Notes: a model not told the origin generated them from the sequence alone. A DNA stretch of 41,638 nucleotides from Candidatus Elarobacter sp. (GCA_036402855.1 DASWSC010000079.1:1-41638), one strand, 5' to 3'; counted from the stretch's first letter, positions 19,526-34,465 are shown. Numbers and translations: made by a program.

Positions 19526-19618
19526 CGCTGCCTTCGGCGGCTTCGACGGAACGGCACGCGGCGAAGTTCCTCACTTCTCGGCAACGTTCCGCTCATCTCG
19601 CTGCGAGATGCTCGCGCC

Positions 19619-19810
19619 ATGACGAACGATCCGATGTTCCCGACCGCCGCCGATGCCCTCGCTGCGCGCGACCGCGTCGAGCGGCTGGCCCCGGACGCCA
19701 GCCGCGACGAGCGCGCCTCGGCCCGCCTCGCGCGAGCGGCGATCTTCCAGGAGGCGCTGCTGGGCGCGCTGCGCGCGCACGCCGCCGAGCTGCGGACCGC
19801 GGCGCGATGA
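19619..19810 (+). CDS. Miniature FlgB-like rod protein
   Basis: First gene before flgC; C-terminal ARLARAAIFQEALLGALRAHAAELRTAAR resembles the FlgB terminal helix; 63 aa. Confidence 0.5.
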   Translation: MTNDPMFPTAADALAARDRVERLAPDASRDERASARLARAAIFQEALLGALRAHAAELRTAAR

Positions 19811-20175
19811 GCGAGCTCGACCTGCTCTCGGTCGCGGCCGACGGGATGAGCGTGCAGCGCAGGCTGCTCGACGTCGCGGCTCGCAACGTCGCGGCCGCGC
19901 AGGCCTCCACGCCGCAGCACCCCTACCCGCGGCTGGTCGCCCGTTTCGCGAGCGCCGATCCGGCCGATGCGTTCCTCGGCCCCTCCGACGACGACCAGGA
20001 GGGCCTCGACGGCGGCACGCGCTTCACCGGGACCGTCCGATCGGGTGAGACCGCGGACGCGCTCACCGAGATGATCGCCGTGCTCGATGCCCAGCGGGCG
20101 TTCGAAGCGAACGCCGGCGTCTTCGACGTCGGAAAACGCCTGGCGGAGCGGACGCTCGACGTGGGGCGCGGCTGA
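19807..20175 (+). CDS. flgC: Basal-body rod protein FlgC-like
   Basis: VAADGMSVQRRLLDVAARNVA...PYPR...TEMIAVLDAQRAFEAN...TLDVGR. Confidence 0.8.
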   Translation: MSELDLLSVAADGMSVQRRLLDVAARNVAAAQASTPQHPYPRLVARFASADPADAFLGPSDDDQEGLDGGTRFTGTVRSGETADALTEMIAVLDAQRAFEANAGVFDVGKRLAERTLDVGRG

Positions 20176-20450
20176 TGCGCGTCGACGTGCTCGTCCCCGA
20201 CGGGCCTGCCGCGCCGCGCGGACCGGCGGCGGCGCAGCCGGCTGCCAACGACTTCGCGCGGCTCGTCGACGCGGCCGGGACGATCCTCGCCGGCGCCGAT
20301 CGCGCCGAGTCGGCGTTCGCCGCGCACCGCGGCGGGCTGCAGGAGATGGTCGTCGAGCGCGCGCGCGCCGACGTGGCGCTGCAGGTCGCCGCGACGGCCG
20401 CGCAACGCACGGCGCAAGGACTCTCGACCCTGCTCGGGATGCAGATCTGA
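20175..20450 (+). CDS. fliE: Hook-basal body protein FliE-like
   Basis: About 90 aa, ADVALQVAA...LLGMQI C-terminus, position between flgC and fliF. Confidence 0.8.
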   Translation: MRVDVLVPDGPAAPRGPAAAQPAANDFARLVDAAGTILAGADRAESAFAAHRGGLQEMVVERARADVALQVAATAAQRTAQGLSTLLGMQI

Positions 20451-20452
20451 CG

Positions 20453-21913
20453 ATGACGGTGTCGCCGCTCGTGGCGCGCGTGCGCGCGGCATCGGCTCGC
20501 ACCCGGATCGCCGCGGCCGGTGCGGTCCTCACGCTCGCCGCGGCCGGCGCGCTCGGCATCGCGGCCTCGCGCGACGCCCGCGTTTCGCTGTTCGCGACGC
20601 CGCTCCGTGCCGAGCAGCTCGCCGAGGTCGAGCAGCGTCTCGCGGCGTGGAACGTTCCGCACGCGAGCGGGCCCGACAACGTGCGCGTCGAGCGCGGAAA
20701 GCGCGGCGAGCTGCTGCTGCGGCTCGCGCTGGCGGGCGTCCCGCACGCGCATCTGGCGGGGAGCGACGAAGCGCTCGCGCACGTCGGCGCGCTGACGCCG
20801 CAGAGCGTCCTCGAAGCGCAGACGCGCGACGCGCTCGCCGCCGATCTTGCGCTCGGCCTGCGCGGGATCGACGGCGTGATCGACGCGCGCGTCGTGATCG
20901 CGCCCGCCAGCGCCGGAATCTACGCCGACGAAACGACGCGCGACGCGAGCGCGAGCGTGCGCGTGACGCTCGCAGCCGGCGCGCGGCTCTCCGCGCGCAC
21001 GGTCGCCGGGATCAAGGCGTTCGTCGCGGGCGGTGTCCCGGCGCTCGACGCGGAGCGGGTGACCGTCCTCGACGACCGCGGCATCGCGCTCGCCGGCGGC
21101 TCGGACGACGCGGCGGACGTGCAGCTCGCGCTGCAGAGCGCGCTCGACGCGGCGTTCGGCGCCGGCGCGACGATCGTGCGCGCGCATCGCGAGCCCGACC
21201 CGGAGCGGCGCGACGTCCACGACGTGCGGCGCGCCGCCACCGGCGGCAGCATCGCACGCGCGACGACGGACGAACGCTACGCCTCGACGGCGAAGAAGTA
21301 CTCGAAGACGAGCGCGACCGAAGACCGCGGGAGCGAGCTGCGCGAGGAACGGCGGACCAGCGCGCCGGGTGCGACGGCGCGTTTGAGCGTCGCGGTCTTC
21401 GTCGACGCGGCGCGGGCGCTCGACCTCCGCAAGATCCGCGCGCTCGCCTCGGCGACGGCCGGGATTCGGACCGAGCGCGGCGACGCGCTCAGCGTCGAAG
21501 CGGTCGCCTTCGGCGAGCGGGGCGGCCGCGCACCGCGCACCCCGCCCTTGCCCGGATGGGCGCTGGCGCTGGCGGGACTCTTGCCGCAAGCGCTCAACGG
21601 TACCGTCGTCGTGCTGGTGGTCGCGTTCGCGGCGAAGCCGCTCGCCGGGCTCGCGTTGCGCGCGGCGGAATCCGCGTCGGCCCGGCGCGCGGCGCGCGAG
21701 GTGGCCGGAATCCCGCCGGCGCGCGTGCACAGCGCGCTCGCGCACGAGCCGCCGCACGTCGCGGCCGCGATCATCGCGGGGCTTCCCGCCGCGACCGCCG
21801 CGGAGGTTCTCGAGCTGTACGGTGCACCCGAGCGCGCCGCCATCGTGCGCCGCCTCGCGCACGCCAACACGTCGCTGCTCCCCGCACCCGAGGAACTGTT
21901 CCGTGCCCGCTGA
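20453..21913 (+). CDS. fliF: MS-ring protein FliF (YscJ/FliF family) fused to a FliG middle-domain-like segment
   Basis: N-terminal TM, GIDGVIDARVVI, ASASVRVTL, VPALDAERVTVLDDRG, RLSVAVFVD, RGDALSV, second TM, then HEPPHVAAAIIAGL...ERAAIVRRLA. Confidence 0.82.
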   Translation: MTVSPLVARVRAASARTRIAAAGAVLTLAAAGALGIAASRDARVSLFATPLRAEQLAEVEQRLAAWNVPHASGPDNVRVERGKRGELLLRLALAGVPHAHLAGSDEALAHVGALTPQSVLEAQTRDALAADLALGLRGIDGVIDARVVIAPASAGIYADETTRDASASVRVTLAAGARLSARTVAGIKAFVAGGVPALDAERVTVLDDRGIALAGGSDDAADVQLALQSALDAAFGAGATIVRAHREPDPERRDVHDVRRAATGGSIARATTDERYASTAKKYSKTSATEDRGSELREERRTSAPGATARLSVAVFVDAARALDLRKIRALASATAGIRTERGDALSVEAVAFGERGGRAPRTPPLPGWALALAGLLPQALNGTVVVLVVAFAAKPLAGLALRAAESASARRAAREVAGIPPARVHSALAHEPPHVAAAIIAGLPAATAAEVLELYGAPERAAIVRRLAHANTSLLPAPEELFRAR

Positions 21914-22412
21914 GTTCGTCTCGCTGGCCGACGTGCTGCGCCGGCCCGCCGTCTCGCATCTCGCTCCGCCGCGCGCCGCCGAGTCGGGCACGCCGCCCGG
22001 CTGCGACGTCGAACCGCGCGCGGTCGCCGTTGAGGACCCGCCCGATCGCGCGCACTCCGGAGATGAAGAGCTCGTCGCCACCGTGCGGGACGCGCGCCTC
22101 TTTCGCGCACGGCTCGCGGACGCGTTCGACGATGCCGCGGCGCGGCTGCTCCGCGAGCTCGCGGCCTCGGTCCTCGCCCGCGAGCTGCGGACCGCCCCGT
22201 GCGAGCTCGATGCGCTGGTCGCCCGGGTGCGCACGCGCATCCCGGTAGCGCGCGTCCGCGTCGCGCCCGCGGACGTCGCGCGGATCTCGGGCGTCCCCGT
22301 GACCGGCGATCCGGCGCTCGCCGCCGGCGATGCCGTCGTCGAGGTCGCCGGCGGCGCGCTCGACCTGCGGCTCGGGGTTCGTGTCGCCGCCGTCCTCGAG
22401 GCGTGCCGATGA
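21903..22412 (+). CDS. fliH: Short FliH/SctL-like stator protein
   Basis: RVRVAPADV...DPALAAGDAVVEVAGGALDLRL C-terminal motif; directly before the ATPase. Confidence 0.7.
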   Translation: MPAEFVSLADVLRRPAVSHLAPPRAAESGTPPGCDVEPRAVAVEDPPDRAHSGDEELVATVRDARLFRARLADAFDDAAARLLRELAASVLARELRTAPCELDALVARVRTRIPVARVRVAPADVARISGVPVTGDPALAAGDAVVEVAGGALDLRLGVRVAAVLEACR

Positions 22413-23650
22413 TCGGCCGGGCGCTGGGCGCGGTGACGGCGGCGCGCGGCGATCTCGTCGAAGCCGAGCTGCCGTTCGCGCGCGTCGGCGAGGGCGTGCG
22501 CGTCTGCGCGCGGGACGCCGCGGTGAACGCGCGCATCGCCGCCCTCCGCGAGACGCGCGCGCTGCTCGCGCCGTTCGGTCCGGTCGACGGCGTCGCGCGC
22601 GGCGACCGCGTCGCCGCCGACCCCGCGGCGCTCACCGCACCGCTCGGGACGGCGCTCCTCGGGCGGGCGATCGATGCGTCGGGGGCGCCGCTCGACGGGG
22701 GTGGCGCACCGCGCGGCCGGCGCGTCGCGGTCGCGCTCGAGGCGCCGCCTCCGGGCTCGCGACGGCCGTGCGAGGGGATCTTCTGGACCGGGGTGCGCGC
22801 GATCGACGGTCCGCTCGCGATCGGGCGGGGCGCGCGGATCGGCGTCTTCGGCGAAGCGGGCGCCGGGAAGTCGACGTTGCTCGACGCGATCGTGCGCGGC
22901 GCGGCCGCCGACGCCGTCGTGCTGGGGCTGGTCGGCGAGCGCGGCCGCGAAGCCGAGCGTGCCCTCGCGCGGCTCGACCCGCGGACGACGATCGTCTGCG
23001 CGACGGCGGATCGCGCTCCCGCCGAGCGCCTCCGCGCCGCCGAGGTCGCCGCGGCGCAAGCCGCCGCCCTGCGCCGCCGCGGCCTCGCCGTGCTGCTGGT
23101 GATCGATTCGCTCGCCCGCGTGGCGGGCGCGGCGCGGGAGGTTGCGCTCGCCGCGGGCGAGCCGGCCGGCCGCGGCGGCTACCCGCCGAGCGTCTTCGCG
23201 GCCCTCGCGCGGCTGCTCGAGTCGGCCGGTTCGGACGGGCGCGGGAGCGTCACGCTGATCGCGACCGTCCTGAGCGACGGCCCGCACGAAGCCGATCCCG
23301 TCTCCGAGGCGGCGCGAGCGGCGCTCGACGGGCACCTGGTCCTCTCCGGCCGGCTCGCCCGCGCGGGCCGCTTCCCCGCCGTCGACGTCGCGCAGAGCGC
23401 GAGCCGGACGCTGGCGGAGGTCGCGAGCCCCGAGCACCTGGCCGCGGCGCGCGCCGTGCGGGCGGCGGTCGCGGCGCTGGACGAGTCGCGCGACGCGCGG
23501 GCTCTCGGCGTCGCCTCCGCCGGCCCCGATCTGGCGCGGTGCGTCGCCGCCGAGGCCGAGCTCGAGCGGTTTCTGCGCCAAGGCCCCGAGCCGTCCGAGC
23601 GGCGAGCGACGCTCACGGCGCTTCTCCGGCTCGCCGATACCCTTCCATGA
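22409..23650 (+). CDS. fliI: Type III export ATPase FliI/SctN
   Basis: TGVRAIDG, Walker A GEAGAGKST, GERGRE, LLVIDSLAR, GYPPSVF, LDGHLVLS. Confidence 0.92.
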   Translation: MIGRALGAVTAARGDLVEAELPFARVGEGVRVCARDAAVNARIAALRETRALLAPFGPVDGVARGDRVAADPAALTAPLGTALLGRAIDASGAPLDGGGAPRGRRVAVALEAPPPGSRRPCEGIFWTGVRAIDGPLAIGRGARIGVFGEAGAGKSTLLDAIVRGAAADAVVLGLVGERGREAERALARLDPRTTIVCATADRAPAERLRAAEVAAAQAAALRRRGLAVLLVIDSLARVAGAAREVALAAGEPAGRGGYPPSVFAALARLLESAGSDGRGSVTLIATVLSDGPHEADPVSEAARAALDGHLVLSGRLARAGRFPAVDVAQSASRTLAEVASPEHLAAARAVRAAVAALDESRDARALGVASAGPDLARCVAAEAELERFLRQGPEPSERRATLTALLRLADTLP

Positions 23651-24273
23651 TGGACGTCTTCGGAGAGATCGCCGCGGTCCAGAACCGGATCGCGGAGATC
23701 ACCGGCGCCCCGGCACGGGGGAGCGTGCAGCCCGTTCCGGTCCCCGCCGCGGCGAGCGCGCCGCGCTTCGCGAGCGCGCTCGCGCAGGCGATGCATCCGA
23801 ATCCCGCGCTGGGCCTCGAGCCGGGCGGTCCCGATGCGCCCGGGACCGGCCTTCCGTCGCGCGTCTCGGCGCCCGCTCCGCCGGCCCAGATCGACGCGCT
23901 GGTCGAGCAGAACGCCGCCACGTGGCAGGTCGATCCCGCGCTGATCAAGGCGGTGATCGCGAACGAGTCCGGCTTCAACGCGAACGCGACCTCCGGCGCC
24001 GGCGCGCAAGGGCTCATGCAGCTCATGCCGGAGACCGCCTCGTCGCTCGGCGTGCGCGATGCGTACGATCCCGTGCAGAACGTCGCCGGAGGGACGCGCT
24101 ATCTGCGCGGCTTGCTCGACCGCTTCCACGGCGACAAGCGGCTCGCGATCGCGGCCTACAATGCGGGACCGGGTGCGGTGGAGAAGTACGGCGACGTCCC
24201 GCCGTATGCCGAAACCAAAAATTACGTCGAAAACGTCCTGGCTTCGTTCGACAAGTACAGCGGCGCTCGTTAG
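23647..24273 (+). CDS. Lytic transglycosylase (SLT domain)
   Basis: AVIANESGFN, GAQGLMQLMP, AAYNAG, PPYAETKNYV. Confidence 0.92.
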   Translation: MMDVFGEIAAVQNRIAEITGAPARGSVQPVPVPAAASAPRFASALAQAMHPNPALGLEPGGPDAPGTGLPSRVSAPAPPAQIDALVEQNAATWQVDPALIKAVIANESGFNANATSGAGAQGLMQLMPETASSLGVRDAYDPVQNVAGGTRYLRGLLDRFHGDKRLAIAAYNAGPGAVEKYGDVPPYAETKNYVENVLASFDKYSGAR

Positions 24274-25807
24274 CGCGCTGCTCGCGCTGGCCGTCGCTCC
24301 GGCCGCCGCGAAGCGTCCCGCCGATGCCGACGTTCCCGTCGCGACCGTCGTCGCGGCGTACGACCGCGCGACGCACGCCGACGACATCCGCACCTTCGCC
24401 GCGGAAGGGACGCTCGCCGGGAACGGCCTGACCGGGACGTTCACCATCGTGCGCGACGGAACGAACGAGCGCGAAGACGACGTGCTCGGCCCGCGCCACG
24501 ACACGTCGCTGCGGCTCGGCGACCGTTTCTTCATGCGGAACCCGAACGGCAACGTCCGCGAGCTGCGCGGCTTCCTGCGGCGGCGCGCGCGAACCGAAGA
24601 GGTGATCGACTCCGGTGCGTTCATCCGGCACCCCGAGCTCGCGCGGTTCGCCGGCTGGGGCGACGCGAACGGGACGAAGGTGTGGCGGCTCGAGGTGAAC
24701 GCGCAAGGCGGCGAGCCGGAGACGCTCTGGATCGATCCCGCGAGCGGCTTCCCGCTGCGGCTCGAGTACTTGGACGGCGACGGACCGACGTTCGTCGACT
24801 ACGCCGACTGGCGTGACGTCAAAGGCCGGAAGATCGCGTTTCGGAGCACGATCAGCGACGGCGACCACCGCTTCGACACCGTGCAGCAGACGACGGGGGT
24901 GCGGATCGACGAGCCGGTCGACCCCGCGAACTTCGCCCCGCTGGCGCCGCGCGTGCTGGCGACCGGCGGCGTCCACACCGTGCCGCTGGTCGAGCGCGGC
25001 GGACACGTCGGCGTGACGGTGCGGATCGCGAACCGCGACTGGTTCTTTCTGCTCGACACCGGCGCGCAGTCGATCCTGGTCGACGCGGCGGTGCTCAAAG
25101 CGGCCGGGATTGCGGGACAGGGCGCGATGGAGGTGCGCGGCGCGTCGCGCAGCGGCGGCCTGACCGTCGCAGTGCTGCCGAAACTCGAAGTCGACGGGGC
25201 GGCGATGGACGACGTCGTCGTCTCGTCGCTCGACATCGCGCACAGCCTCGGCGGCGGCCTGCAGATCGACGGCATCCTGGGCTATCCGTTCCTCGCCTCG
25301 GCGGTGGTCGAGATGGACTTCGCGGCGCATGCGCTGCGCTTCGGGCCGCCCGGCTCGTTCGTTCCGCGCGGGACCCCGGTGCCGCTCGACGTCGACCGCG
25401 AGCTCGCCGAGGCGACGCTGCGCGTCAACGGCCGCCTCGACGCGCCGTTCATCGTCGACACGGGGAACAGCGGCGAGATGCTGCTGTACCGCCCGTTCCT
25501 CGACGCCCATCCGGGTCTCGTCCCCTTCGCGCCCTCGACGTCGTGGAACTACGGGATCGGCGGCGCGAACGCGACGTACCGCACCTCGCTCGACGAGCTG
25601 AAGCTGGCCGGCTTCGATCTGTACCATCGCAGCGTCGACGTGGTGCTGGCGAAGAACGGTGCGTTCGCCGATCGCGTCGACGCCGGGAACGTCGGCTTGG
25701 GCGTGCTGCGCAACTTCGTCGCGACGTTCGATCTCGGCAACGCGTCGATGTATCTCGCGCCGGGCCCTGCGTTCGACGACGGCAGACGCCGAACCGCGCG
25801 CATCTAG
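24206..25807 (+). CDS. Exported aspartyl protease with two retropepsin-like domains and an N-terminal beta-rich domain
   Basis: Signal-peptide-like N-terminus; FLLDTGA...IDGILG and FIVDTGN...GNVGLG; start uncertain. Confidence 0.82.
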   Translation: MPKPKITSKTSWLRSTSTAALVSALLALAVAPAAAKRPADADVPVATVVAAYDRATHADDIRTFAAEGTLAGNGLTGTFTIVRDGTNEREDDVLGPRHDTSLRLGDRFFMRNPNGNVRELRGFLRRRARTEEVIDSGAFIRHPELARFAGWGDANGTKVWRLEVNAQGGEPETLWIDPASGFPLRLEYLDGDGPTFVDYADWRDVKGRKIAFRSTISDGDHRFDTVQQTTGVRIDEPVDPANFAPLAPRVLATGGVHTVPLVERGGHVGVTVRIANRDWFFLLDTGAQSILVDAAVLKAAGIAGQGAMEVRGASRSGGLTVAVLPKLEVDGAAMDDVVVSSLDIAHSLGGGLQIDGILGYPFLASAVVEMDFAAHALRFGPPGSFVPRGTPVPLDVDRELAEATLRVNGRLDAPFIVDTGNSGEMLLYRPFLDAHPGLVPFAPSTSWNYGIGGANATYRTSLDELKLAGFDLYHRSVDVVLAKNGAFADRVDAGNVGLGVLRNFVATFDLGNASMYLAPGPAFDDGRRRTARI

Positions 25808-25869
25808 CAACAACTTCGCAACGCGGGCGCTGCCCGCCGCACGGTATGGTCGCTGCGGAGGGATTCACG

Positions 25870-26406
25870 ATGCAGCAGCACACCACCGGCGTCGCCTTCG
25901 TCGCGACGCACCTCGCGCACACCGACCGGCGCGCGCTCTCCGAAGCCTGGTACAGCGCGCTGCACCTCGCCGGCGACGCACACCGTGCCGCGACGCCGAA
26001 CCGAAGCGTCGCGCGGCGCCCCGTTGCGGCGAAGCCTGCGCCGGGTGCGCGGGTCGAGCGCGTCCACGCGACCGGCGTGACCCCGCCGCGCGCCGCGCGC
26101 GATGCGGGGCGCGCGACCGCCCGGCACGACGTCGCCGCGGTCACACCCGAGCGGCGGGCGGCGAAGACGCCGCTCGCGAGCCGCATCGCGGCTGCGCTGA
26201 ACCGGCGCGCGGCATGTGCCGGGGCCCGCTCGTTCGCGGTGGCGACGGCGGACGGCCGCATCCACGTGGTCGTTCGGAGCGACGGCGCGCGGACGCGCAT
26301 CGTCGCGGTCTGCACGCCCTCGCTGCGCGAGCGGGTCGAGCGCGCGCTGGCCCAGGCGCGCTTCGCGCTCGCCGGACACGGCCTGAACACCGAGGCGGCG
26401 CGATGA
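25870..26406 (+). CDS. Short FliK/SctP-like length-control protein
   Basis: Low-complexity P/A/R middle plus C-terminal GRIHVVVRSDG..TRIVAV..SLRERVERALAQARFALAGHGL (FliK-C-like); at the fliK position. Confidence 0.55.
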   Translation: MQQHTTGVAFVATHLAHTDRRALSEAWYSALHLAGDAHRAATPNRSVARRPVAAKPAPGARVERVHATGVTPPRAARDAGRATARHDVAAVTPERRAAKTPLASRIAAALNRRAACAGARSFAVATADGRIHVVVRSDGARTRIVAVCTPSLRERVERALAQARFALAGHGLNTEAAR

Positions 26407-27128
26407 ACGGCGCCTCGCCGCTCGATGCGTACGAACGCGTCCTCTCGCGGGCGCAGGATCTGCGCGACGCGTTCCGCGCCGGTGCGCTCCCCCTCAACCA
26501 CGACGTGCAGGCCGGGGCGCACGTCGTCCCGTCGAGCGATCCGCTAAGTATCGTCCCGCCGCCCGGCGCATGGCTGGTCACGCGCGGCGCCGACGGTGTC
26601 CGCGCCTACGAGCGCGACGGGACGCTGACGCTCGACGACGGCGTGCTGCGGGCGCGCGACGGCGCCGAGGTGCTCGGCTATCCGGGCGGTGCGTCGCACG
26701 GCGCGATCCCCGTTCCGCTGCGGGTCCCGGAGATCGATCGCGCGCTCGGGCGCGCGGCCGGCGCGCGCGTCGCCGAGGACGGAACGGTGGCGTACGAGCG
26801 CGCCGCGATCGACCCGCGCACCGGCGTCCGCCGCGCCGAGCGCGTCGTGCTCGGACGCGTCGCGCTGGCGCGCTTCCCCGCCGGGACGCAGCCGGCGCGG
26901 CTCGACGCGACGCGCGCCGCCGCGCCGCCGGGCGTCGCGCCGCACCTCGGGACGCCGCGCGACGGGACGTTCCCGGCGCTCGCCGCGGCCAGCCGCGACG
27001 CGGGGACGATCGACCTCGTCGCGGGCGTCGCGCGGCTGGACGAGGCGTACCGCGCGTTCGAGGCGCTCGGCGCCGCGGTGAAGTCGCGGGCGAGCGCGCA
27101 GAAGACCGCCGTGGACCTCGTGAAGTGA
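26403..27128 (+). CDS. FlgE/F/G-family rod/hook subunit (rod-sized, 241 aa)
   Basis: [26 protein letters not shown]...GAEVLGY; C-terminal [19 protein letters not shown]...TAVDLVK. Confidence 0.75.
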
Positions 27129-27928
27129 TCGGCGGGGCGACCTTCGGTGCGCCGGGTCCGCGCGTTCGCCGGCTGCGTTTCCTCCCGCGCGCGCCGGTCT
27201 CGCTCGAGGCGGCCTGCGCGGCCGCGAACGGGATCCGCGAGACGCTGCGCGAGCTGCTCGGCGAACGCTGCGAGCTCGTGATCGGCGAGCCTGCCGCGCT
27301 CTCGCCGGAGGCGTGGGCGGCGCTCGCGCACGACGCGCACCTGTTTCTGACGCGCGGGCGCCGCACCGACGTGGTCCTCGTGCTCCCGAAAGCCGACGCG
27401 CGGCGGCTGGTGCTCCGCGCGTTCGGCGAGACGGGCGGCGGCTCCGGGGCGCCTCTCCCGGACGCCGCGTGCTCCGTCCTCGAGCTGCACGCGCTCGAAC
27501 GGATCGCGGTGCGTTGTTCCGCGGCGTTCGCGCCGCTCGCCGCGGAGCGCGACGCGCCGCGCCGGGTCGCGGCTCGCGAGCTGCCCGCGTGCGCCGCGTA
27601 CTTCGATCTGCGCGTCCACGAGCCGGTCGCGTTGACGCTGGGGATCGGGATCGTGCGCGACCTCCCCGACCCGCCGCCGGCCGGGGCGCTGGCCGCCGCC
27701 GCGCTCGACGCCGTCGCCGTCGAGGTGCGGGCAGTCTTCGCGGAGGGAACGCTCGACGCGGGAGAGTTCGTGAAGATGCGGCCGGGCCACGTCGTGAAGC
27801 TCGACACCAAGGTCGGCGCTCCGGCATCCTTGAAGCTTGGAACCCGACGCCTTGCAACGGGCGTCCCCGGCGTCGTCGCTTCGAGCACCGCCTTTCTGGT
27901 TCACGACGTCGCCCAGGGAGCGCAATGA
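27125..27928 (+). CDS. Divergent FliM/SctQ-like C-ring protein (C-terminal SpoA domain)
   Basis: [34 protein letters not shown] SpoA pattern; precedes fliN. Confidence 0.65.
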
Positions 27929-28185
27929 TGGCCATGACCGAGCAAGGCAAGAACCTCGACCTCTTGATGAACGTGCCGCTGAAGGTGACGGCGGAGCTCG
28001 GCACGTGCAAGATGCTGGTGCGCGACATCCTCAAGCTGGGGACGGGCTCGATCGTCGAGCTCGACCGGCTCGCGGGCGGTCCCGTCGACCTGCTGGTGAA
28101 CGACCGGCTCGTCGCGCGCGGCGAGGTCGTCGCGATCGACGAGAACTTCGGCGTCCGCATCACCGAGCTGATCGAGAAACCGTAA
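27925..28185 (+). CDS. fliN: C-ring protein FliN
   Basis: [17 protein letters not shown]...[44 protein letters not shown]. Confidence 0.95.
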
Positions 28186-28230
28186 CACCGCGGCCACCGG
28201 CCGGTTCGCGCCGGCGCGCACGATGGCCGC

Positions 28231-28890
28231 ATGGACGACCTGCTCACCATCGCGCGGCACGGGCACTCGGCGCTCCCGCTCGACGTGCTCGCCGCGCTGA
28301 CGCTCTTGTCGGTGGCGCCGTTCGTGCTCGTGCTCTCGACCTCGTTCGTGCGGATCGTCGTCGTGCTCTCGCTGGTGCGCTCGGCGATCGGCGCCTCGAC
28401 GCTGCCGCCGAACGCGGTGCTCACCGGCCTCGCGCTGGTGCTGACGATCGTCGTGATGACGCCGACGTTCGAGACGGTGCAGCACGATGCGATCCGGCCG
28501 TACGCCGCCGGTACGCTGAGTCAGTCGGCGTTTCTCGAACGCGCGAGCCGGCCGCTGCGCGCCTTCATGCTGCGCCAGACGAAGGCCCGCGATCTCGCGG
28601 TGTTCGCGCGGCTCGCGCACCGGCCGGACGGCGAGGCGGCCGCCGAGGCGCCGCTGACGGTCGTCATCCCGTCGTTCGTCGTCGGCGAGCTGCGCGCGGC
28701 GTTCGCGATCGGCGTCGCGCTCTATCTTCCGTTCGTCGCGATCGATCTCGCCGTCGCCGCGATCCTGATGGGGATGGGGATGGTCATGCTCAGCCCGCCG
28801 GTCATCTCGCTCCCGTGCAAGCTGCTGCTCTTCGTGATGGTCGACGGTTGGGCGCTGGTCTGCGCCGGCGTCGTGCAGAGCTTCCGCTGA
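28231..28890 (+). CDS. fliP: Export gate protein FliP/SctR
   Basis: TSFVRIVVVLSLVR, PPNAVLTGLAL, YLPFVAIDL, GMVMLSPPVISLPCKLLLFVMVDGW. Confidence 0.93.
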   Translation: MDDLLTIARHGHSALPLDVLAALTLLSVAPFVLVLSTSFVRIVVVLSLVRSAIGASTLPPNAVLTGLALVLTIVVMTPTFETVQHDAIRPYAAGTLSQSAFLERASRPLRAFMLRQTKARDLAVFARLAHRPDGEAAAEAPLTVVIPSFVVGELRAAFAIGVALYLPFVAIDLAVAAILMGMGMVMLSPPVISLPCKLLLFVMVDGWALVCAGVVQSFR

Positions 28891-28928
28891 CGGCGGGACG
28901 ACCGCTCCGCGCCGCGAAGCCGCGGCGT

Positions 28929-29366
28929 GTGGAGGCCTCGCCGGGATCGCGTGACGGCGCCGAGTTGCTCGACCGGCTTCGATCGCTGCGGCTGCCTCGC
29001 GGGGACTACGCCGTCTTCGGAAGCGGTCCGCTGGTCGTCCGCGGCATCATCCCCGCGAGCGGCGATCTCGACGTCTTGGCACGCGGAGCGGCCTGGTCTC
29101 GCGCCCGTGAACTCGGGCCGCTCGTCGCGCTCCCGCAGTACGGCGTCGAGATCGTCGAACTGTGCGGCGGAGGAATCACGGTCGGGACGCGCTGGGGGAT
29201 CGGAACGTTCGACGCCGACGAGCTGATCGACGGGGCGGAGCTCATCGGCGGCTTGCCGTTCGTGCGGCTCGAGCACGTCCGCCGCTACAAGCAGATCGCA
29301 CAGCGGCCGAAGGATCTGGCGCACGTCGCCGCGCTCGACGCCTGGGAGCGCGCGCACCCCGGCTGA
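28929..29366 (+). CDS. Small nucleotidyltransferase-like protein
   Basis: YAVFGSGPL...SGDLDVL (GS..DxD) and terminal RPKD; start uncertain. Confidence 0.55.
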   Translation: MEASPGSRDGAELLDRLRSLRLPRGDYAVFGSGPLVVRGIIPASGDLDVLARGAAWSRARELGPLVALPQYGVEIVELCGGGITVGTRWGIGTFDADELIDGAELIGGLPFVRLEHVRRYKQIAQRPKDLAHVAALDAWERAHPG

Positions 29367-29466
29367 GACGCCGGCACGGCCGAACCGGCTCGTCCAAAGG
29401 CGGCGATCGCGCCGGCTGTGGACGCCGCGGGGTGGAGTGCCGCGCCGTGACGGGGAAGCCGCGCGC

Positions 29467-30345
29467 GTGAGGATCGCTGAGAAGCTCTCGACGCGGCGGC
29501 CGTTCTTCTCGTTCGAGTTCTTTCCGCCGAAGAGCGACGAGGCGGAACGGAACCTCTTCGAGACGATCGCGACGCTGAAGCCGCTCGACCCGGGCTTCGT
29601 CTCGATCACCTACGGCGCGGGCGGTTCGACGCGCACCCGCACGGTCGACATCGCCAAACGGCTCAAGAGCGAGGCGGGCTTCGACGTGATGGCGCACGTC
29701 ACGTGCGCCGGGGCGACGGCCGACGAGCTGCGCGGCCTGCTGAACGACCTGCGGCGCTCGGGGATCGAGAACATCATGGCGCTGCGAGGCGACCCGCCGC
29801 GCGGGACGGAGACCTTCGTGGTCGCCGAAGGCGGTCTGCGCTATGCCAGCGATCTCGTCCGGCTGCTGAAGAGCGAGTTCTCGTTCTGCGTCGGCGGCGC
29901 GTGCTATCCGGAGAAGCACCCCGAAGCGCCGAGCCTCGATGCGGATCTCCACGCGCTGTGCGGGAAGGTTCGCGCCGGAGCGGAGTTCCTGGTGACGCAG
30001 CTGTTCTTCGACAACGCGCGCTACTTCGAGTTCGTCGAGCGCGCGCGCGCCTGGGGGATCAAGGTTCCGATCCTGCCCGGGATCATGCCGATCACGAACT
30101 ACGATCAGATCGACCGTTTCACGCGGCAGTGCGGCGCGGTGATCCCGCCGAGCCTGCGGGACGCGCTCGAAGAGCGGCGAGACGATCCGAACGCCGTGGT
30201 CGATCTCGGCGTCGCGTACATGACGCTGCAAGTCGCGGACTTGCTCGCGCGCGGCGCGCCCGGGGTGCATTTCTACACGCTCAACCGCTCGCCGGCGACC
30301 CGCGCGGTCGTCTCCGCGATGCTCGCCGCACGCCGCGCATGGTGA
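29467..30345 (+). CDS. metF: 5,10-methylenetetrahydrofolate reductase
   Basis: SFEFFPPK, SITYGAGGSTR, ALRGDPP, YPEKHPEA, TQLFFDN, HFYTLNRS. Confidence 0.96.
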   Translation: MRIAEKLSTRRPFFSFEFFPPKSDEAERNLFETIATLKPLDPGFVSITYGAGGSTRTRTVDIAKRLKSEAGFDVMAHVTCAGATADELRGLLNDLRRSGIENIMALRGDPPRGTETFVVAEGGLRYASDLVRLLKSEFSFCVGGACYPEKHPEAPSLDADLHALCGKVRAGAEFLVTQLFFDNARYFEFVERARAWGIKVPILPGIMPITNYDQIDRFTRQCGAVIPPSLRDALEERRDDPNAVVDLGVAYMTLQVADLLARGAPGVHFYTLNRSPATRAVVSAMLAARRAW

Positions 30346-30397
30346 CGGTAACCTTTCGGCAACGGCGTGCGCCGGCGGGGACGGCTACGCTTCCCGC

Positions 30398-30664
30398 ATG
30401 GATGCCTTCGAAGGACTGCTCCGCGACGCGCTGCTGCTGACGGCGCTGCTGACCCTCCCCGTCCTGCTCGTCGCGACCGCGGCCGGCGCGGCGGTCGCGG
30501 TGGTGCAGGCGGCGACGCAGGTGCAGGAGCAGACGCTGACGCTGCTCCCGAAGCTGATCGCGGTCGCGATCGTGATCGTGCTGTTCGGGCGCTTCGGGAT
30601 GAGCCTCTGCGAGCGGCTCTTTCACGACGTCGTCTTGCGCATGCCGCTGCTCGCACGCGGATGA
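30398..30664 (+). CDS. fliQ: Export gate protein FliQ/SctS
   Basis: QAATQVQEQTLTLLPKL. Confidence 0.93.
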   Translation: MDAFEGLLRDALLLTALLTLPVLLVATAAGAAVAVVQAATQVQEQTLTLLPKLIAVAIVIVLFGRFGMSLCERLFHDVVLRMPLLARG

Positions 30665-31392
30665 GCGCACCGGCGTTCGACGCCACCACGCTGCTCGTGC
30701 TGGCGCGGGCCGCCGGGCTGGTCGCGCGCGCGCCCGGGTTCTCGCATCCGTCGGTTCCGCCGATCGTGCGCGCCGGGCTGGCGCTCGCGCTCGCGTGCGC
30801 CGTCGCACCGGCGGTCGCCCCGGTGCGCGGTGCGGATTTGGCCGAGCTCGTCCTCGCGCTCGCGGCGAACGCCGCGACCGGCGCGGCGATCGGCTTCGGC
30901 GCCTCGCTGCTGTACGACGGCGCCTACTTCGCCGGCCGCACGGTCGACGATTACCTGGGCGTGCGCGGGAGCGTGCCGGGTGCGAACGTCACGAGCGCGC
31001 AGGCGTTCGGGCGGCTGTGGTCGTCGGTGTTTCTGGTAGCGTTCGTGCTACTCGACGGCTGGGTGCCGGTCGTCCGCGCCTTCGCCGGCTCGTTCGCGCA
31101 CGTCGGCGCGACGGGATTTCCGTCGTCGGCTTCATGGCGCGCGTTCGCGCTCGACGTCCCGGCCGCGATCGTGCGCGCGGCGTTCGAGGTCGCGGCCCCG
31201 GCCATCGCGGTCGCTGCGGCGCTCCAGCTCGCGCTCGCGGCGGTGGCGCGCGTCGTGCCGCGGTTCTCGAGCCTGAGCATCGCGTTTCCGGCGGTCTTCG
31301 CGGCCGCGCTCGCCGTCACGCTGGCGACGCTCCCGCTCCTCGCGCGCGCGGGCGCGCACCCGTGGCTCGTCGTGCCGTGGAGCCTCCGGTGA
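30661..31392 (+). CDS. fliR: Export gate protein FliR/SctT
   Basis: APGFSHPSVPPIVRAGLA, AGRTVDDYLG, VARVVPRFS; between fliQ and flhB. Confidence 0.82.
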   Translation: MSAPAFDATTLLVLARAAGLVARAPGFSHPSVPPIVRAGLALALACAVAPAVAPVRGADLAELVLALAANAATGAAIGFGASLLYDGAYFAGRTVDDYLGVRGSVPGANVTSAQAFGRLWSSVFLVAFVLLDGWVPVVRAFAGSFAHVGATGFPSSASWRAFALDVPAAIVRAAFEVAAPAIAVAAALQLALAAVARVVPRFSSLSIAFPAVFAAALAVTLATLPLLARAGAHPWLVVPWSLR

Positions 31393-32435
31393 GCGACGAG
31401 AAACGGTACGAGCCGACCCCGTCGCGCAAAAGCCGCGCGCGGCGCGAGGGGAACGTCGCGCGCTCGGTCGAGCTCACGAGCGTCGCCGCGTTCGCGGGTG
31501 CGATCGTTGCGGCGGTCGTCGCCGTCCCGCTGGTCGCCGCAGCGGCCGCGGCGGCGGTGCGCCTCGCCGCCCGGCATGCGAGCGCAAACGCAGGCGCCGC
31601 AACACCGGGCAGGTTCGCCGCGGCGGCGATCGTGATGTGCGCCCTGCTCCCGGCGGCGGCCGCCGCGGCCGGCGGTGCGCTCGCGGCGCTGGTGCAGGGC
31701 GGCGGACTGCGCGTCGTCCCGCTGCGCGCCGACGCGAAGCGCCTCGACCCGATCGCCGGGTTCAAGCGCATCCTCGGCGGCGAGACGCTGGTCGCGCTCT
31801 GTCGCGCCGTGCCGGCGTTGGCGGCCGCGCTGCTGGCGATGGTGCCGATCGCGCGCGATGCGATCGGCGGCGCCGCGCTGCTGAGCTCGCCGGCTGCCGC
31901 GGGAGCCCTCGTCGCGTCGGCGGCGCTGCGCGCGTGCGGCGCGGCTCTCGCCGTCGGCGCGGCGTTCGCCGTCGCCGACTACGCGCTGACGCGGCGGCGC
32001 TGGCTGCGCGGCCTCAAGATGTCGCACGACGAGCTCAAGCGCGACACGAAGGAGAACGACGGCGACGCGCATGCCCGCGCGCGGCGGAAGAGCGCCCACC
32101 GCACGATCGTGCGCGGCGCCGTCGGCCGAACCCGCGAGGCGAGCTTCGTCGTGGTGAACCCGACCCACGTCGCGGTCGCGCTCCGCTACGATCCGCCCGC
32201 GGTCGCGGTCCCGGAAGTCCTCGTGCGGGCGGTCGACGAGGCGGCGTTGCGCGTCCGCGCGATCGCGCGCGAGCACGGCGTCCCGATCGTCGAAGACATT
32301 GCGCTCGCGCGGCTCTTGTACGCGCAGGGCGAGAGCGGCCGCGCGATCCCCGCCGATGCGTACGTCGCGGTGGCCCAGGTCGTCGCGGCCCTGGCGCGCG
32401 ACGGTCTGCTCGGGGCGGAGGCCGCGGCCCGGTGA
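31389..32435 (+). CDS. flhB: Substrate-switch protein FlhB/SctU
   Basis: EKRYEPTPSRKSRARREGNV, LKMSHDELKRDTKENDGD, autocleavage motif NPTH. Confidence 0.92.
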   Translation: MSDEKRYEPTPSRKSRARREGNVARSVELTSVAAFAGAIVAAVVAVPLVAAAAAAAVRLAARHASANAGAATPGRFAAAAIVMCALLPAAAAAAGGALAALVQGGGLRVVPLRADAKRLDPIAGFKRILGGETLVALCRAVPALAAALLAMVPIARDAIGGAALLSSPAAAGALVASAALRACGAALAVGAAFAVADYALTRRRWLRGLKMSHDELKRDTKENDGDAHARARRKSAHRTIVRGAVGRTREASFVVVNPTHVAVALRYDPPAVAVPEVLVRAVDEAALRVRAIAREHGVPIVEDIALARLLYAQGESGRAIPADAYVAVAQVVAALARDGLLGAEAAAR

Positions 32436-34465
32436 ACGGACGGCTCACCACCGCGTTCGCGGTCGCCGTGCTCGGCGTCGTCGCGATCCTGATCGTCCCG
32501 CTCGCGCCGGCGCTGCTCGACGTCCTCCTGGCGCTGAACGTCTTCGGGTCGGCGCTCGTGCTGCTGATCAGCCTGCGCGTCGAGGAGCCGCTGGAGTTCT
32601 CCGCGTTCGCGCCCTCGCTGCTGCTCGCGACGCTGTTCCGGCTCGCGCTCGACGTCAGCGCGACGCGTTTGATCCTTACGCAGGGTCACGATGCCGGCGG
32701 GGTCGGCGCGCTGATCCCGGCGTTCGGCCAGTTCGTCGTACGCGGCAACGTGGTCGTGGGCTTGATCGTCTTCGCGATCCTGATCACGATCCAGTTCGTC
32801 GTCATCGCGAGCGGCGCGCAGCGCGTCGCCGAGGTGTGCGCGCGGTTCACGCTCGACGCGATGCCCGGGAAGCAGATGGCGATCGACGCCGACCTGCACG
32901 CGGGGATGCTCGACGCCGACGTCGCGCGCCGCAAGCGCGCGCGGGTGCAGCGCGAGGCCGACTTCTACGCCGCGATGGACGGCGCCGGGAAGTTCGTGAA
33001 GGGCGACGCCGTCGCGGCGCTCGTCATCGTCGTGCTGAACCTGCTCGGCGGCGTCCTGGTCGGGACGCTCTATCACGGGATGCCGCCGCTCGAGGCGATC
33101 GAGACCTTCGCGATCCTCTCGATCGGCAACGCGCTGCTCACGACGCTGCCCGCGTTCCTCATCTCCACCGCGATGGGGCTGATGGTGACGCGCGTCGCCG
33201 GCGACGGCGCGCTCGGCGTCGATCTCGCGTTGCAGCTCTCGGCGCGGCCCGACGTGCTGCGCGTCGCGGCCGTCCTCGTGCTCGCGCTCGCGTTCGTTCC
33301 CGCCTTCCCCGGTCCGCTGTTCGGTACGATCGGCGTGCTGGCGTTCGGCGGGGCGCTGCTTGCGGAACGGCACAAGCGGCGTGCCGACGAGCGCGCGGGC
33401 GCGGTGCGCGAGCAGCGCCGGCGCGACGCCGTTCGCCGGCCGGAGACCGCGTTCGGGCTGGTCGGCGTCGACGCGCTGGCGATCGACGTCGGCGCCGACC
33501 TCTTTCCGCTGCTCGTCGCGCCGAACTGCGACGCGCTGCTCGACCGCATCGCCGACGTCCGCCGCTCGCTCGCCGCCGAGACCGGGATCGTGATCCCCGG
33601 CGTCCGCCTGCGCGACGATCCGCTCCGCGATCCGCGCACGTATGCGATCCGCGTGCGCGACTGCGTCGCCGCGGAAGGCGTGGTGCGGCTCGACCGTCTG
33701 ATCGCCGTCGGCGGGCCCGAGGTGCTCGAACGTCTCGGGGGCGAGCCGGCGACGGAGCCGGTCTACGGACTGGACGCGCGCTGGATCGAGGAGGACGACG
33801 TCGCGCGCGTCCAGGCCGCCGGCGCGCTGACGTTCGACGCGATCTCGATCCTCGGTTCGCACCTGGCCGAGGTCGCGCGCTGCCACGCCGCGGAGCTCTT
33901 CGGACGCCAGGAACTGCAGACGCTGCTCGAGCACTTGCGCGGCGCCGTACCGGCGGTCCTCAAGGACGTCGGAACCGACCTCGTGCCGCTCGCCGCGGCG
34001 CACCGCGCGTTCGGACACCTCTTGCGCGAGCGCGCCTGGCCGCGCGATCCGGTCGCCGTCTTCGAAGCGATGACCGACGCGGCCGCGACGACGCGCGAGC
34101 CGCGCGAGCTCGCCGAAGCGGTGCGGCGGAGCGTCGTACCGCTCCAGCTCCGCCGGGACGGCGTCTCGGCGCTGCGACCGCTGATCCTCGATCCGGCCTT
34201 CGAAGCCGAGCTCGTGCGGATGTGGTCGCCCGAGAGCGGGCTCGCACCCGACCCGGCGACGGCGCTGCACCTGCGCGAGTCGGTCGTGCGCTACGCCGCG
34301 CACGACGAACGCGCCCCGCATGCGCTCGTCGTCACGGCGGCGCTGCGACCGCTGCTCGCCGAGTTTCTCCAGCGCACGGCATCCCGTGTTCCGGTCTATG
34401 CCTACACCGAGCTTCCCCCGGAGCTCGAGCTCGAACCCGCCGGGGTGATCGACGGACACGCGTGA
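32432..34465 (+). CDS. flhA: Export gate protein FlhA/SctV
   Basis: LFRLALDVSATR, RVAEVCARFTLDAMPGKQMAIDADL, MDGAGKFVKGD; full cytoplasmic domain. Confidence 0.95.
   Translation: MNGRLTTAFAVAVLGVVAILIVPLAPALLDVLLALNVFGSALVLLISLRVEEPLEFSAFAPSLLLATLFRLALDVSATRLILTQGHDAGGVGALIPAFGQFVVRGNVVVGLIVFAILITIQFVVIASGAQRVAEVCARFTLDAMPGKQMAIDADLHAGMLDADVARRKRARVQREADFYAAMDGAGKFVKGDAVAALVIVVLNLLGGVLVGTLYHGMPPLEAIETFAILSIGNALLTTLPAFLISTAMGLMVTRVAGDGALGVDLALQLSARPDVLRVAAVLVLALAFVPAFPGPLFGTIGVLAFGGALLAERHKRRADERAGAVREQRRRDAVRRPETAFGLVGVDALAIDVGADLFPLLVAPNCDALLDRIADVRRSLAAETGIVIPGVRLRDDPLRDPRTYAIRVRDCVAAEGVVRLDRLIAVGGPEVLERLGGEPATEPVYGLDARWIEEDDVARVQAAGALTFDAISILGSHLAEVARCHAAELFGRQELQTLLEHLRGAVPAVLKDVGTDLVPLAAAHRAFGHLLRERAWPRDPVAVFEAMTDAAATTREPRELAEAVRRSVVPLQLRRDGVSALRPLILDPAFEAELVRMWSPESGLAPDPATALHLRESVVRYAAHDERAPHALVVTAALRPLLAEFLQRTASRVPVYAYTELPPELELEPAGVIDGHA

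What the first reader, a model, noticed from the sequence alone, without database searches (positions are those of the whole stretch)
19619..34465. Reduced flagellum-derived type III secretion machine that appears non-motile
Seen: the order flgB'-flgC-fliE-fliF(G')-fliH-fliI-slt-protease-fliK'-flgEFG-fliM'-fliN-fliP-..-fliQ-fliR-flhB-flhA follows the Firmicute-like fla/che operon. The export core keeps its functional motifs (Walker A/B, FlhA FHIPEP region, FlhB NPTH, FliP/Q motifs) in uninterrupted, translationally coupled ORFs. Rotor and axial parts are shrunken or divergent, and fliG-C, fliJ, flgD, fliL, fliO, cheY, flhF, motAB, flgHI, flgKL and flagellin are absent from the locus. There is no secretin, needle or translocon, so it is not a classical injectisome. 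Inference: an independent exaptation of the flagellar basal body into a short secretion, nanotube-like or envelope-remodelling device, paralleling the reduced systems of Chlamydia and Buchnera but apparently in a free-living lineage.
Basis: partly seen in the sequence, partly recalled or inferred. Interest (0 to 1): 0.88.

Follow-up and report, generated by a model that had tools for sequence, protein, structure and literature searches.

The report
Motorless second flagellum-derived secretion machine
This soil bacterium has ordinary flagellum genes and also a second, shrunken set that most of its relatives keep even when they have no motor or filament genes, so the second set likely builds a non-swimming protein-export machine, possibly a living relative of the step from flagellum to bacterial injection needle.

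Summary
Observation confirmed, with corrections. The window (Vulcanimicrobiaceae, phylum Vulcanimicrobiota/Eremiobacterota) holds an intact but shrunken flagellar export operon. The same genome also has an ordinary flagellar set with its own export gate, FliG, MotB and flagellin, so the machine looks non-motile, not the organism. The reduced FlhA is full-length in 73 of 80 class genomes; 46 of these have neither MotB nor flagellin. A second locus (flgF'-flgG'-flgJ'-sigma28-like) shares a promoter motif with the window's cluster. The sister class carries a less eroded version (26 of 26) whose FliG lacks two torque arginines. dN/dS is 0.14-0.59. Best reading: a stator-less, filament-less type III export machine with a short rod; no substrate, expression or structure is shown. 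New here: export-gate trees place the sister-class version next to all injectisomes, and AU tests reject other positions on fixed backbones. FliI agrees only weakly, and the window's own long-branched proteins are not firmly placed. The scan reported this system before on other DNA (e1-9873313; e1-3069472, part of which fell). My literature searches found no description, but key papers were unreadable.

The parts
19569..19612 (+). Predicted leaderless promoter: tandem boxes with 11-bp period plus -10 hexamer, 6 nt before the flgB' ATG
   Evidence: Rank 2 of 2703 gene starts in the genome with a matrix trained without this genome; conserved in relatives
19619..19810 (+). flgB', 63 aa; only the C-terminal helix of proximal-rod FlgB is recognisable
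   Evidence: No Pfam hit; hhalign prob 61 to sister-class FlgB; 61-72 aa in 15 loci
19807..20175 (+). flgC', 122 aa, proximal rod
   Evidence: PF06429 and TIGR01395, below cut-off
20175..20450 (+). fliE', 91 aa
   Evidence: hhalign prob 95.9 to sister-class FliE; orthologues hit PF02049 weakly
20453..21913 (+). fliF fused to the FliG middle domain, 486 aa (MS ring plus predicted FliM-binding link; no torque domain)
   Evidence: PF01514, PF08345, PF14841; alignment with FliG
21903..22412 (+). fliH', 169 aa, shortened
   Evidence: hhalign prob 97.5; weak Pfam hit
22409..23650 (+). fliI export ATPase, 413 aa
   Evidence: TIGR01026 E 3e-101; GERGRE, Walker B and SR motifs in 16 of 16 orthologues, Walker A pattern in 15 of 16
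23647..24273 (+). slt lytic transglycosylase, 208 aa; same position in both classes
   Evidence: PF01464; synteny
24206..25807 (+). Two-domain aspartyl protease (start uncertain); probable passenger
   Evidence: PF13650; about 10 paralogues in the genome; absent from sister-class and G070 clusters
25870..26406 (+). fliK'-like ORF, 178 aa; candidate short length ruler
   Evidence: Same position as sister-class FliK (PF02120); hhalign only prob 3.6; single-sequence model pLDDT 44
26403..27128 (+). flgE', 241 aa, FlgE derivative without domain D2
   Evidence: PF22692 weak; family alignment and search; the sister-class orthologue scores best on FlgE models among equivalogs
27125..27928 (+). fliM', 267 aa, without the N-terminal LSQxEID peptide seen in the genome's ordinary FliM
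   Evidence: PF01052; hhalign prob 93.7; sequences
27925..28185 (+). fliN, 86 aa
   Evidence: TIGR02480 over cut-off
28181..28224 (+). Predicted leaderless promoter of fliP, same motif
   Evidence: Rank 3 of 2703
28231..28890 (+). fliP, 219 aa; lacks the N-terminal extension of ordinary FliP; M-loop has Ser-Pro as in SctR
   Evidence: TIGR01103 over cut-off; motif survey
29467..30345 (+). metF, inserted housekeeping gene, not part of the machine
   Evidence: PF02219; retained where the cluster is deleted (G106)
30347..30391 (+). Likely fliQ promoter, same boxes with spacing one base longer
   Evidence: Read by eye; not recovered by the matrix scan; motif conserved in relatives
30398..30664 (+). 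fliQ, 88 aa
   Evidence: PF01313
30661..31392 (+). fliR, 243 aa
   Evidence: PF01311
31389..32435 (+). flhB, 348 aa, NPTH site intact
   Evidence: PF01312
32432..34465 (+). flhA, 677 aa
   Evidence: PF00771 E 4e-190; 37% identical to the genome's ordinary FlhA

Best explanation
The cluster encodes a second, flagellum-derived type III export apparatus that many relatives keep without motor, hook-cap or filament genes, and that likely works as a non-rotating protein-export machine with a short rod. Shown: gene content, order, conservation, distribution, a shared promoter motif. Inferred steps: (1) an unidentified regulator binds tandem 11-bp boxes and switches on both loci; (2) FliP/Q/R, FlhB and FlhA form the gate inside a FliF ring; (3) the FliG middle domain fused to FliF holds a FliM'/FliN scaffold that carries FliH'/FliI, like an injectisome sorting platform, with no torque domain; (4) FliE', FlgB', FlgC', FlgF', FlgG' and FlgE' are exported and assemble a rod through a hole opened by SLT; (5) with no P/L ring or linked secretin the rod likely ends in the periplasm or at the outer membrane; (6) a short FliK' and FlhB cleavage would then switch export to unknown late substrates, perhaps under the dedicated sigma28-like factor.
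For: Distribution: full-length reduced FlhA in 73 of 80 class genomes at least 90% complete; ordinary FlhA and MotB in the same 29; flagellin over cut-off in 28 of those 29; 46 genomes have the reduced FlhA with neither, five of them single-contig. FlgD in 10 of 10 class genomes with the ordinary set and 0 of 34 without; FlgI only in the flagellated genome of 5. Ordinary flagella have their own flgBC-fliE-flgFG-flgAHIJ. Sister class: the same operon with full FliG, FliJ, FliK, FliO but no flgD or motAB in six loci read; reduced-type FlhA in 26 of 26 genomes; flagellin in only 12 of 38. In 8 of 8 sister-class FliG the arginines matching E. coli R281 and R297 are replaced, while 4 of 4 ordinary FliG keep them (roles from PMC6079164, one passage). 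Selection: within-genus dN/dS 0.14-0.59 with metF at 0.21; ATPase motifs conserved; near-constant gene lengths. Regulation: a matrix trained without this genome ranks flgF', flgB' and fliP first among 2703 starts. The sigma28-like gene is found in 78 of 80 genomes.
Against: No substrate, expression or structure was shown. The system evolves faster than the ordinary set in the same two genomes (dN/dS 0.17-0.30 against 0.08-0.22). It is dispensable in places: G106 has a clean deletion; G036, G074, G082, G092 have no FlhA match; G130 has split or merged frames. NPTH was matched in 17 of 22 FlhB, with NPEH in one and four unmatched; the strict FHIPEP pattern matched only 7 of 22. FliJ is missing in this class, and one of two G070 copies lacks FliI. 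FliK' identity is weak. A short FlgE is not proof of a needle: five of six Bacilli loci have FlgE-like proteins of 254-272 aa. No rod or hook cap other than a FlgJ-like stub is evident.
Confidence: 0.72

Rival explanations
1. The complex assembles but secretes little beyond its own parts; its job is envelope remodelling or cell-cell connection (a membrane scaffold plus local peptidoglycan opening, nanotube-like).
For: SLT is conserved inside the operon in both classes; no P/L ring or linked secretin; no substrate genes beside either locus; the second locus lies near genes I read as yggS-sepF-divIVA (labels recalled, not scanned).
Against: ATPase, FlhB cleavage site, six axial genes, a FliK-type ruler (clear in the sister class) and a dedicated sigma factor are more than a bare scaffold needs.
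Confidence: 0.15
2. It is a slowly decaying duplicate of the flagellum under relaxed selection.
For: Faster evolution than the ordinary set; stepwise shrinkage from the sister class to this class; losses and damaged copies in about 6 of 80 genomes.
Against: Kept in 73 of 80 and 26 of 26 genomes across both classes, far more often than the ordinary flagellum (29 of 80); dN/dS below 1 for every gene; conserved promoters at two unlinked loci; where lost in G106 it is deleted cleanly; monophyly with the phylum's own flagellum is rejected (p-AU 0.0066 and 0.027).
Confidence: 0.05
3. The proteins are accessory or alternative parts of a rotating flagellum, using stators and filament encoded elsewhere.
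For: This genome does encode MotB, FliG and flagellin.
Against: 46 genomes keep it with neither MotB nor flagellin; the ordinary set is self-sufficient; the torque domain of FliG is lost in this class and its arginines are replaced in the sister class.
Confidence: 0.03
4. Evolutionary rival: the link to injectisomes is long-branch attraction or convergence after loss of rotation, and the system is an independent exaptation.
For: Both groups have long stems. The free FliI tree put the sister-class FliI with Bacilli (support 80). The Ser-Pro signature in FliP also occurs in 4 proteobacterial flagellar FliP. The window's own proteins are strongly composition-biased and fall with Actinomycetota in several fast searches. 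No Chlamydiae, spirochaetes, Thermotogota or Armatimonadota were knowingly sampled. AU tests used fixed backbones.
Against: The grouping holds under site-heterogeneous models, Dayhoff recoding and 142 added FlhA representatives (99, 99 and 98-99.9). Signal is positive in 4 of 5 genes. Other long-stemmed flagellar clades are not attracted. A FliI tree holding the group together scores 4.5 log units higher than the free one, though p-AU is 0.55.
Confidence: 0.45

Closest known systems
Terrabacteria-type flagellum (fla/che operon order)
   Same: Gene order and homology of export gate, ATPase, MS ring, C ring and rod; sister-class FlhA, FliP, FliR, FliQ, FliI, FliF and FliG pass NCBIfam flagellar cut-offs.
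   Different: No MotAB, FlgD or flagellin in genomes that carry only this system; no flgA/H/I at either locus; FliG cut to its middle domain and fused to FliF; coexists with a complete ordinary flagellum.
Buchnera aphidicola basal body (PMC8109811, passages read)
   Same: Flagellar export gate and rod kept, fliC and motAB lost, proposed secretion role.
   Different: Buchnera keeps flgH, flgD, flgE and flgK and is an endosymbiont in genome reduction; this system is phylum-wide in free-living cells, is a paralogue of an intact flagellum, and has its own promoter motif.
Myxococcales needleless T3SS* (PMC3459982, PMC12075869, passages read)
   Same: No linked secretin, needle or translocon; free-living host; vertically conserved; Tad-like and pilus secretins occur elsewhere in the genomes (locus labels are my reading).
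   Different: Myxo systems lack FlgBCDEK and FliEG per Abby and Rocha; this system keeps FliE, FlgB/C/F/G, FlgE' and part or all of FliG, so it is structurally closer to the flagellum. Predation is shown only for Myxococcus.
Injectisome (NF-T3SS, Sct proteins)
   Same: Homologous export gate; shared residues in FliP, FlhB and FlhA with the sister-class version; sister position in export-gate trees.
   Different: No SctC, SctD, SctF, SctW or translocon recognised at the loci; most proteins score higher on flagellar than on Sct models.

Membership tests
Rotary bacterial flagellum | Flagellar export gate and ATPase (FliP/Q/R, FlhB, FlhA, FliI) | tested here: met
Rotary bacterial flagellum | Stator (MotA/MotB) belonging to the system | tested here: not met
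   MotB plug in 0 of 46 class genomes that carry only the reduced FlhA; MotA not searched
Rotary bacterial flagellum | FliG torque domain with its charged residues | tested here: not met
   Domain absent from the window's fusion; R281 and R297 equivalents replaced in 8 of 8 sister-class FliG
Rotary bacterial flagellum | Flagellin filament and hook cap | tested here: not met
   Flagellin_N over cut-off in 0 of 46; FlgD in 0 of 34; FlgK and FliD not searched genome-wide
Rotary bacterial flagellum | Rod proteins FliE, FlgB, FlgC, FlgF, FlgG | tested here: met
   Main and second locus; FlgB' is a remnant
Injectisome (NF-T3SS) | Secretin SctC linked to the system | tested here: not met
   None at the two loci; secretins exist in 5 of 5 genomes but at other loci; use in trans is not excluded
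Injectisome (NF-T3SS) | Needle SctF, ring SctD, gatekeeper SctW, translocon | tested here: inconclusive
   No such Pfam/NCBIfam hit among cluster proteins; not searched genome-wide
Injectisome (NF-T3SS) | Export-gate proteins nested inside the Sct clade | tested here: not met
   Sister to, not inside, the Sct clade
Injectisome (NF-T3SS) | Delivery of effectors into another cell | not testable with these tools
   No substrate identified
Buchnera-type repurposed basal body | Basal body and export genes kept under selection without stator and flagellin | tested here: met
Buchnera-type repurposed basal body | Complex expressed and assembled in the envelope | not testable with these tools
   Needs RNA, proteomic or imaging data
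Myxococcales needleless T3SS* | Lack of FlgB/C/E, FliE and FliG | tested here: not met
   These are retained

The most novel reading that the evidence does not exclude
Vulcanimicrobiota carry a living descendant of the flagellum-to-injectisome intermediate: a system that has lost stator, hook cap and filament but still has the flagellar rod and C ring, branching as sister to all injectisomes below the Myxococcales. The sister class shows the early state; the window's class shows further, injectisome-like shrinkage (FliG cut to a linker; FliO, FliJ and the FliP N-terminal extension lost).
Probability: 0.45. Interest if true: 0.95.

Novelty: new variant of a known kind. Interest (0 to 1): 0.85.

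Why it matters
How injectisomes arose from flagella is a long-standing question, and the earliest known branch (Myxococcales) has already lost the flagellar rod and rotor genes. A phylum-wide, free-living system that keeps those parts but not the motor would supply the missing earlier stage. It can be tested, because one member of the family is in culture and is reported to have no flagella or flagellin (PMC9758169). Even if the tree position falls, a second flagellum-derived machine that is retained far more often than the flagellum itself points to an unknown core function in an abundant soil phylum, and it means that flagellar gene hits over-call motility there.

Tried and rejected
RNA evidence: no RNA holder was listed for one relative's cluster; this is no evidence either way, and read laying was not used. 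Weak Flagellin_N hits in six genomes: the two loci read (G087, G058) showed a membrane-transporter operon, not flagellin (my reading from sequence, not scanned). Single-sequence AlphaFold model of FliK' (pLDDT 44) was too poor to search with; the ESM Atlas did not answer. The full C20-mixture AU test did not finish; I ran it under PMSF and LG instead, and there the site profiles came from a free guide tree, which can favour the free topology. A constrained fast search on 206 FlhA gave a tree 335 log units worse that was rejected (p 0.0002); it had also lost other groups, so I repeated the test by regrafting, where window class plus sister class scored best but the Actinomycetota placement was not rejected (p 0.11). 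Candidate substrate: a 182-200 aa HExxH metalloprotease carries the same promoter motif (6 genomes; 6 of 7 further orthologues), but it persists in 4 of 5 genomes lacking the main cluster and has no clear orthologue in 2 sister-class genomes, so it is not accepted as a dedicated substrate. Secretins were not found at either locus. No complex prediction was run. Literature: 8 searches; none of the listings or passages I saw describes this system. Ji et al. 2021 (PMC8397712) was not held, and the TXSScan tables in the supplements of PMC9259500 were not read, so an earlier mention is possible.
Full report
Identity. The window is the whole contig C79 of a fragmented genome (2.87 Mb, 308 contigs, 78.5% complete, 70% GC). 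Its FlhA is 81% identical to that of a record titled Vulcanimicrobiaceae bacterium, which places it in Vulcanimicrobiota (Eremiobacterota). I call its class 'this class' (families f1-f3) and the other phylum members 'the sister class' (f4-f18).

Observation. The genes are there as described and uninterrupted. The short parts without Pfam hits were tested against longer orthologues from the sister class: fliE', fliH' and fliM' are well supported, flgB' is a C-terminal remnant, and fliK' rests mainly on position. FliF carries the FliG middle domain at its C-terminus. The protease, metF and the ORF at 28929 are passengers.

Flagellin, MotB and a full FliG are in this genome, but they come with a second complete export gate, ATPase and MS ring that are 29-49% identical to the window's and with their own rod genes (contig C88). 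In two single-contig relatives the ordinary set includes flgBC-fliE-flgFG-flgAHIJ-flgKL-fliC and flgD-flgE-motAB (some labels are my reading of order and sequence). There are two systems, not one scattered one.

Distribution. One search examined 151 phylum genomes; I took 80 of the 99 from this class, favouring few contigs. Of these 80, 73 have a full-length reduced-type FlhA, one has it split over two frames (G130), two have C-terminal fragments only (G106, G142) and four have none. Ordinary FlhA and MotB occur in the same 29; flagellin passes the cut-off in 28 of them. Forty-six genomes have the full reduced FlhA with neither, five of them in a single contig. FlgD was found in 10 of 10 class genomes with the ordinary set and 0 of 34 without; FlgI in 1 of 5, the flagellated one. 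In the sister class, 26 of 26 genomes tested have an FlhA of one distinct clade, while flagellin was found in 12 of 38 and MotB in 14 of 38, two of them weak. Six sister-class loci read in full show flgB-flgC-fliE-fliF-fliG-fliH-fliI-fliJ-slt-fliK-flgE'-fliM-fliN-fliO-fliP-fliQ-fliR-flhB-flhA, without flgD or motAB (in one the fliO gene was not called). These genomes are kin and not independent samples. The cultured Vulcanimicrobium alpinus is reported to have an outer membrane, no flagella and no flagellin gene, and its Table S8 lists a fliN (PMC9758169; passages and two supplement searches). That this fliN is of the reduced type is my inference from the class-wide pattern.

Second locus and regulation. 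A rod-domain search found a conserved pair in 5 of 5 genomes: flgF'-flgG'-flgJ'-sigma28-like, on contig C139 in this genome. The sigma gene is found in 78 of 80 genomes, two as partial matches. Upstream of flgB', fliK', fliP, fliQ and flgF' lies a tandem box with 11-bp period, then a -10 hexamer 6-7 nt before the start codon. A matrix built from 52 of 62 upstream regions of relatives, excluding this genome, ranked flgF', flgB' and fliP first among 2703 starts (scores 25.4, 22.0, 20.1; three column-shuffled matrices peaked at 12.6-15.6), but missed this genome's fliK' and fliQ. A pattern search gave 114 matches against 30 for the reversed pattern in 20 genomes; the pattern was derived from some of these genomes, so this enrichment is partly circular. 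This ties the two loci into one regulon. The only other recurring member was a small HExxH metalloprotease, which survives loss of the main cluster in 4 of 5 genomes.

Selection. Within the genus, Nei-Gojobori dN/dS is 0.14-0.59 across 18 genes, with metF at 0.21 (high GC3 compresses dS, and the fliQ starts were set too early there). For one genome pair the reduced genes give 0.17-0.30 and the ordinary ones 0.08-0.22: faster, but purifying. Gene lengths are nearly constant across about 20 loci. Losses exist: G106 keeps metF between stubs of flgC and flhA.

Loss of rotation. This class has no FliG C-terminal domain in the system. In the sister class, 8 of 8 FliG replace the arginines aligned to E. 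coli R281 and R297 while mostly keeping the acidic pair, and 4 of 4 ordinary FliG keep both arginines (alignment to a solved FliG; residue roles from one passage of PMC6079164; the match to E. coli numbering is my reading of the motif). FliM' lacks the N-terminal peptide present in the ordinary FliM. FlgE' lacks domain D2, and its nearest outside relatives are full FlgE, but five of six Bacilli loci have equally short FlgE-like proteins, so this alone says little.

Phylogeny, for. With 31 taxa and 1576 columns (FliP, FliQ, FliR, FlhB, FlhA; LG+C20 PMSF; ten of 41 available rows left out, including all six from this class), the sister-class system and eight injectisomes are separated from 19 flagella with SH-aLRT 99. 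Monophyly with the phylum's own flagellum is rejected (p-AU 0.0066 PMSF, 0.027 LG). Of 25 positions for the injectisome clade, only this one stays in the AU set. The signal is positive in four of five genes and includes shared residues, such as Ser-Pro in the FliP M-loop (4 of 4, 8 of 8, 0 of 19). With 43 taxa including Proteobacteria, the grouping holds under LG (99) and Dayhoff recoding (99). Under C10 PMSF with profiles from a guide tree that split the two classes, all 17 placements of injectisomes among ordinary flagella were rejected by AU (p at most 0.009). With 142 added environmental FlhA representatives the clade persists (98.2 and 0.999) and takes in five unnamed sequences.

Phylogeny, against. 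The free FliI tree, rooted on F1 ATPases, put the sister-class FliI with Bacilli (support 80); holding it with SctN gave a tree 4.5 log units better, but p-AU is 0.55. The Ser-Pro signature also occurs in four proteobacterial flagellar FliP. The window's own proteins have a GARP/FYMINK ratio of 3.0 against about 1.0 and fall with Actinomycetota in fast searches. Joining them to the sister class scores higher by 45, 31 and 26 log units, but the alternative is rejected only in the first (p 0.037, 0.055, 0.11), and one constrained fast search was far worse. Their orthology with the sister-class system therefore rests also on the FlhA tree (99), shared gene order, slt, the FlgE' family, the FliP signature and the second locus. 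Trees were short searches on one CPU, AU tests used fixed backbones, and sampling misses several phyla.

Comparison. Abby and Rocha (PMC3459982, passages) derive injectisomes from flagella with Myxococcales as the first branch, lacking FlgBC, FliE and FliG. Buchnera keeps a basal body without fliC and motAB (PMC8109811, passages). The Myxococcus needleless system works with a Tad pilus in prey lysis (PMC12075869, passages). This system fails membership in the rotary flagellum and in the injectisome, and works most like the Buchnera basal body. PMC9259500 ran TXSScan on sister-class genomes (passages; supplements not read). PMC13277936 and bioRxiv 10.64898/2026.06.21.733656 had no relevant passage.

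Earlier notes of this scan describe the same system on other DNA. I had reached my reading before opening them, and I do not know which part of e1-3069472 fell.

Verdict. A real, conserved, non-rotating flagellum-derived type III system (about 0.9 for that much; 0.72 with protein export as its job). New variant of a known kind, interest 0.85. Sister of the injectisomes: 0.45.

Noticed in passing
L202:6070-7557, L211:7282-8667, L212:5693-7120, L213:6357-7706, L205:4216-6522: Sister-class genomes encode stand-alone proteins made of the FlhA cytoplasmic domain (about 450-500 aa, in three of four loci beside an HTH/coiled-coil gene); large genomes have many more, one fused to a FliG_N domain. Possible substrate adaptors; unexplained.
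   Followed up: partly
L288:501-1046 and orthologues; G000 contig C133:10845-11138 (cut by contig end): A 182-200 aa HExxH metalloprotease with no evident signal peptide (not run through a predictor) and only below-threshold Pfam hits (ATLF, M90) shares the system's promoter motif across family f1.
   Followed up: partly
L280, L278; G000 contig C247:1224-1424: Short coiled-coil ORFs (66-75 aa) follow motif matches in three genomes; they look alike by eye but BLAST did not link them.
   Followed up: no
L104, L105, L214, L215 (G070): One 1.9 Mb genome has two reduced clusters (one without fliI) and an ordinary set with MotB and FlgD but no flagellin match.
   Followed up: partly
L236 (G106): Clean deletion of the main cluster leaving metF between flgC and flhA stubs; useful as a natural knockout.
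   Followed up: yes
L208 (G045), L205 (G043), L207 (G073): Duplicated or divergent second copies of the reduced-type FlhA in large sister-class genomes.
   Followed up: no
L155 (G053): A third, differently organised flagellar system with its own motAB in a sister-class genome, on a long branch of its own.
   Followed up: no
P0351, P0252, P0354, P0263, P0298: Five environmental FlhA without organism names join the clade of this system plus injectisomes; their loci could not be fetched.
   Followed up: partly
window 15015-16397 (-) and 17813-19525 (-): A methyl-accepting chemotaxis protein and a GAF-PAS-adenylate cyclase lie upstream; the cyclase is adjacent to flgB' in several relatives, including family f3.
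   Followed up: no
many genomes: A second sigma factor (33-40% identical to the system's sigma) is matched in many genomes, including ones without a flagellum.
   Followed up: no
L004, L002: Records titled 'uncultured proteobacterium' and 'uncultured bacterium' carry reduced-type genes (FlhA tree for L004, FliP motif for both) and probably belong to this phylum.
   Followed up: partly
window 34531-39663: Downstream genes for a large radical-SAM/glycosyltransferase-like fusion and a methyltransferase (read from sequence, not scanned); not conserved beside flhA in relatives.
   Followed up: no
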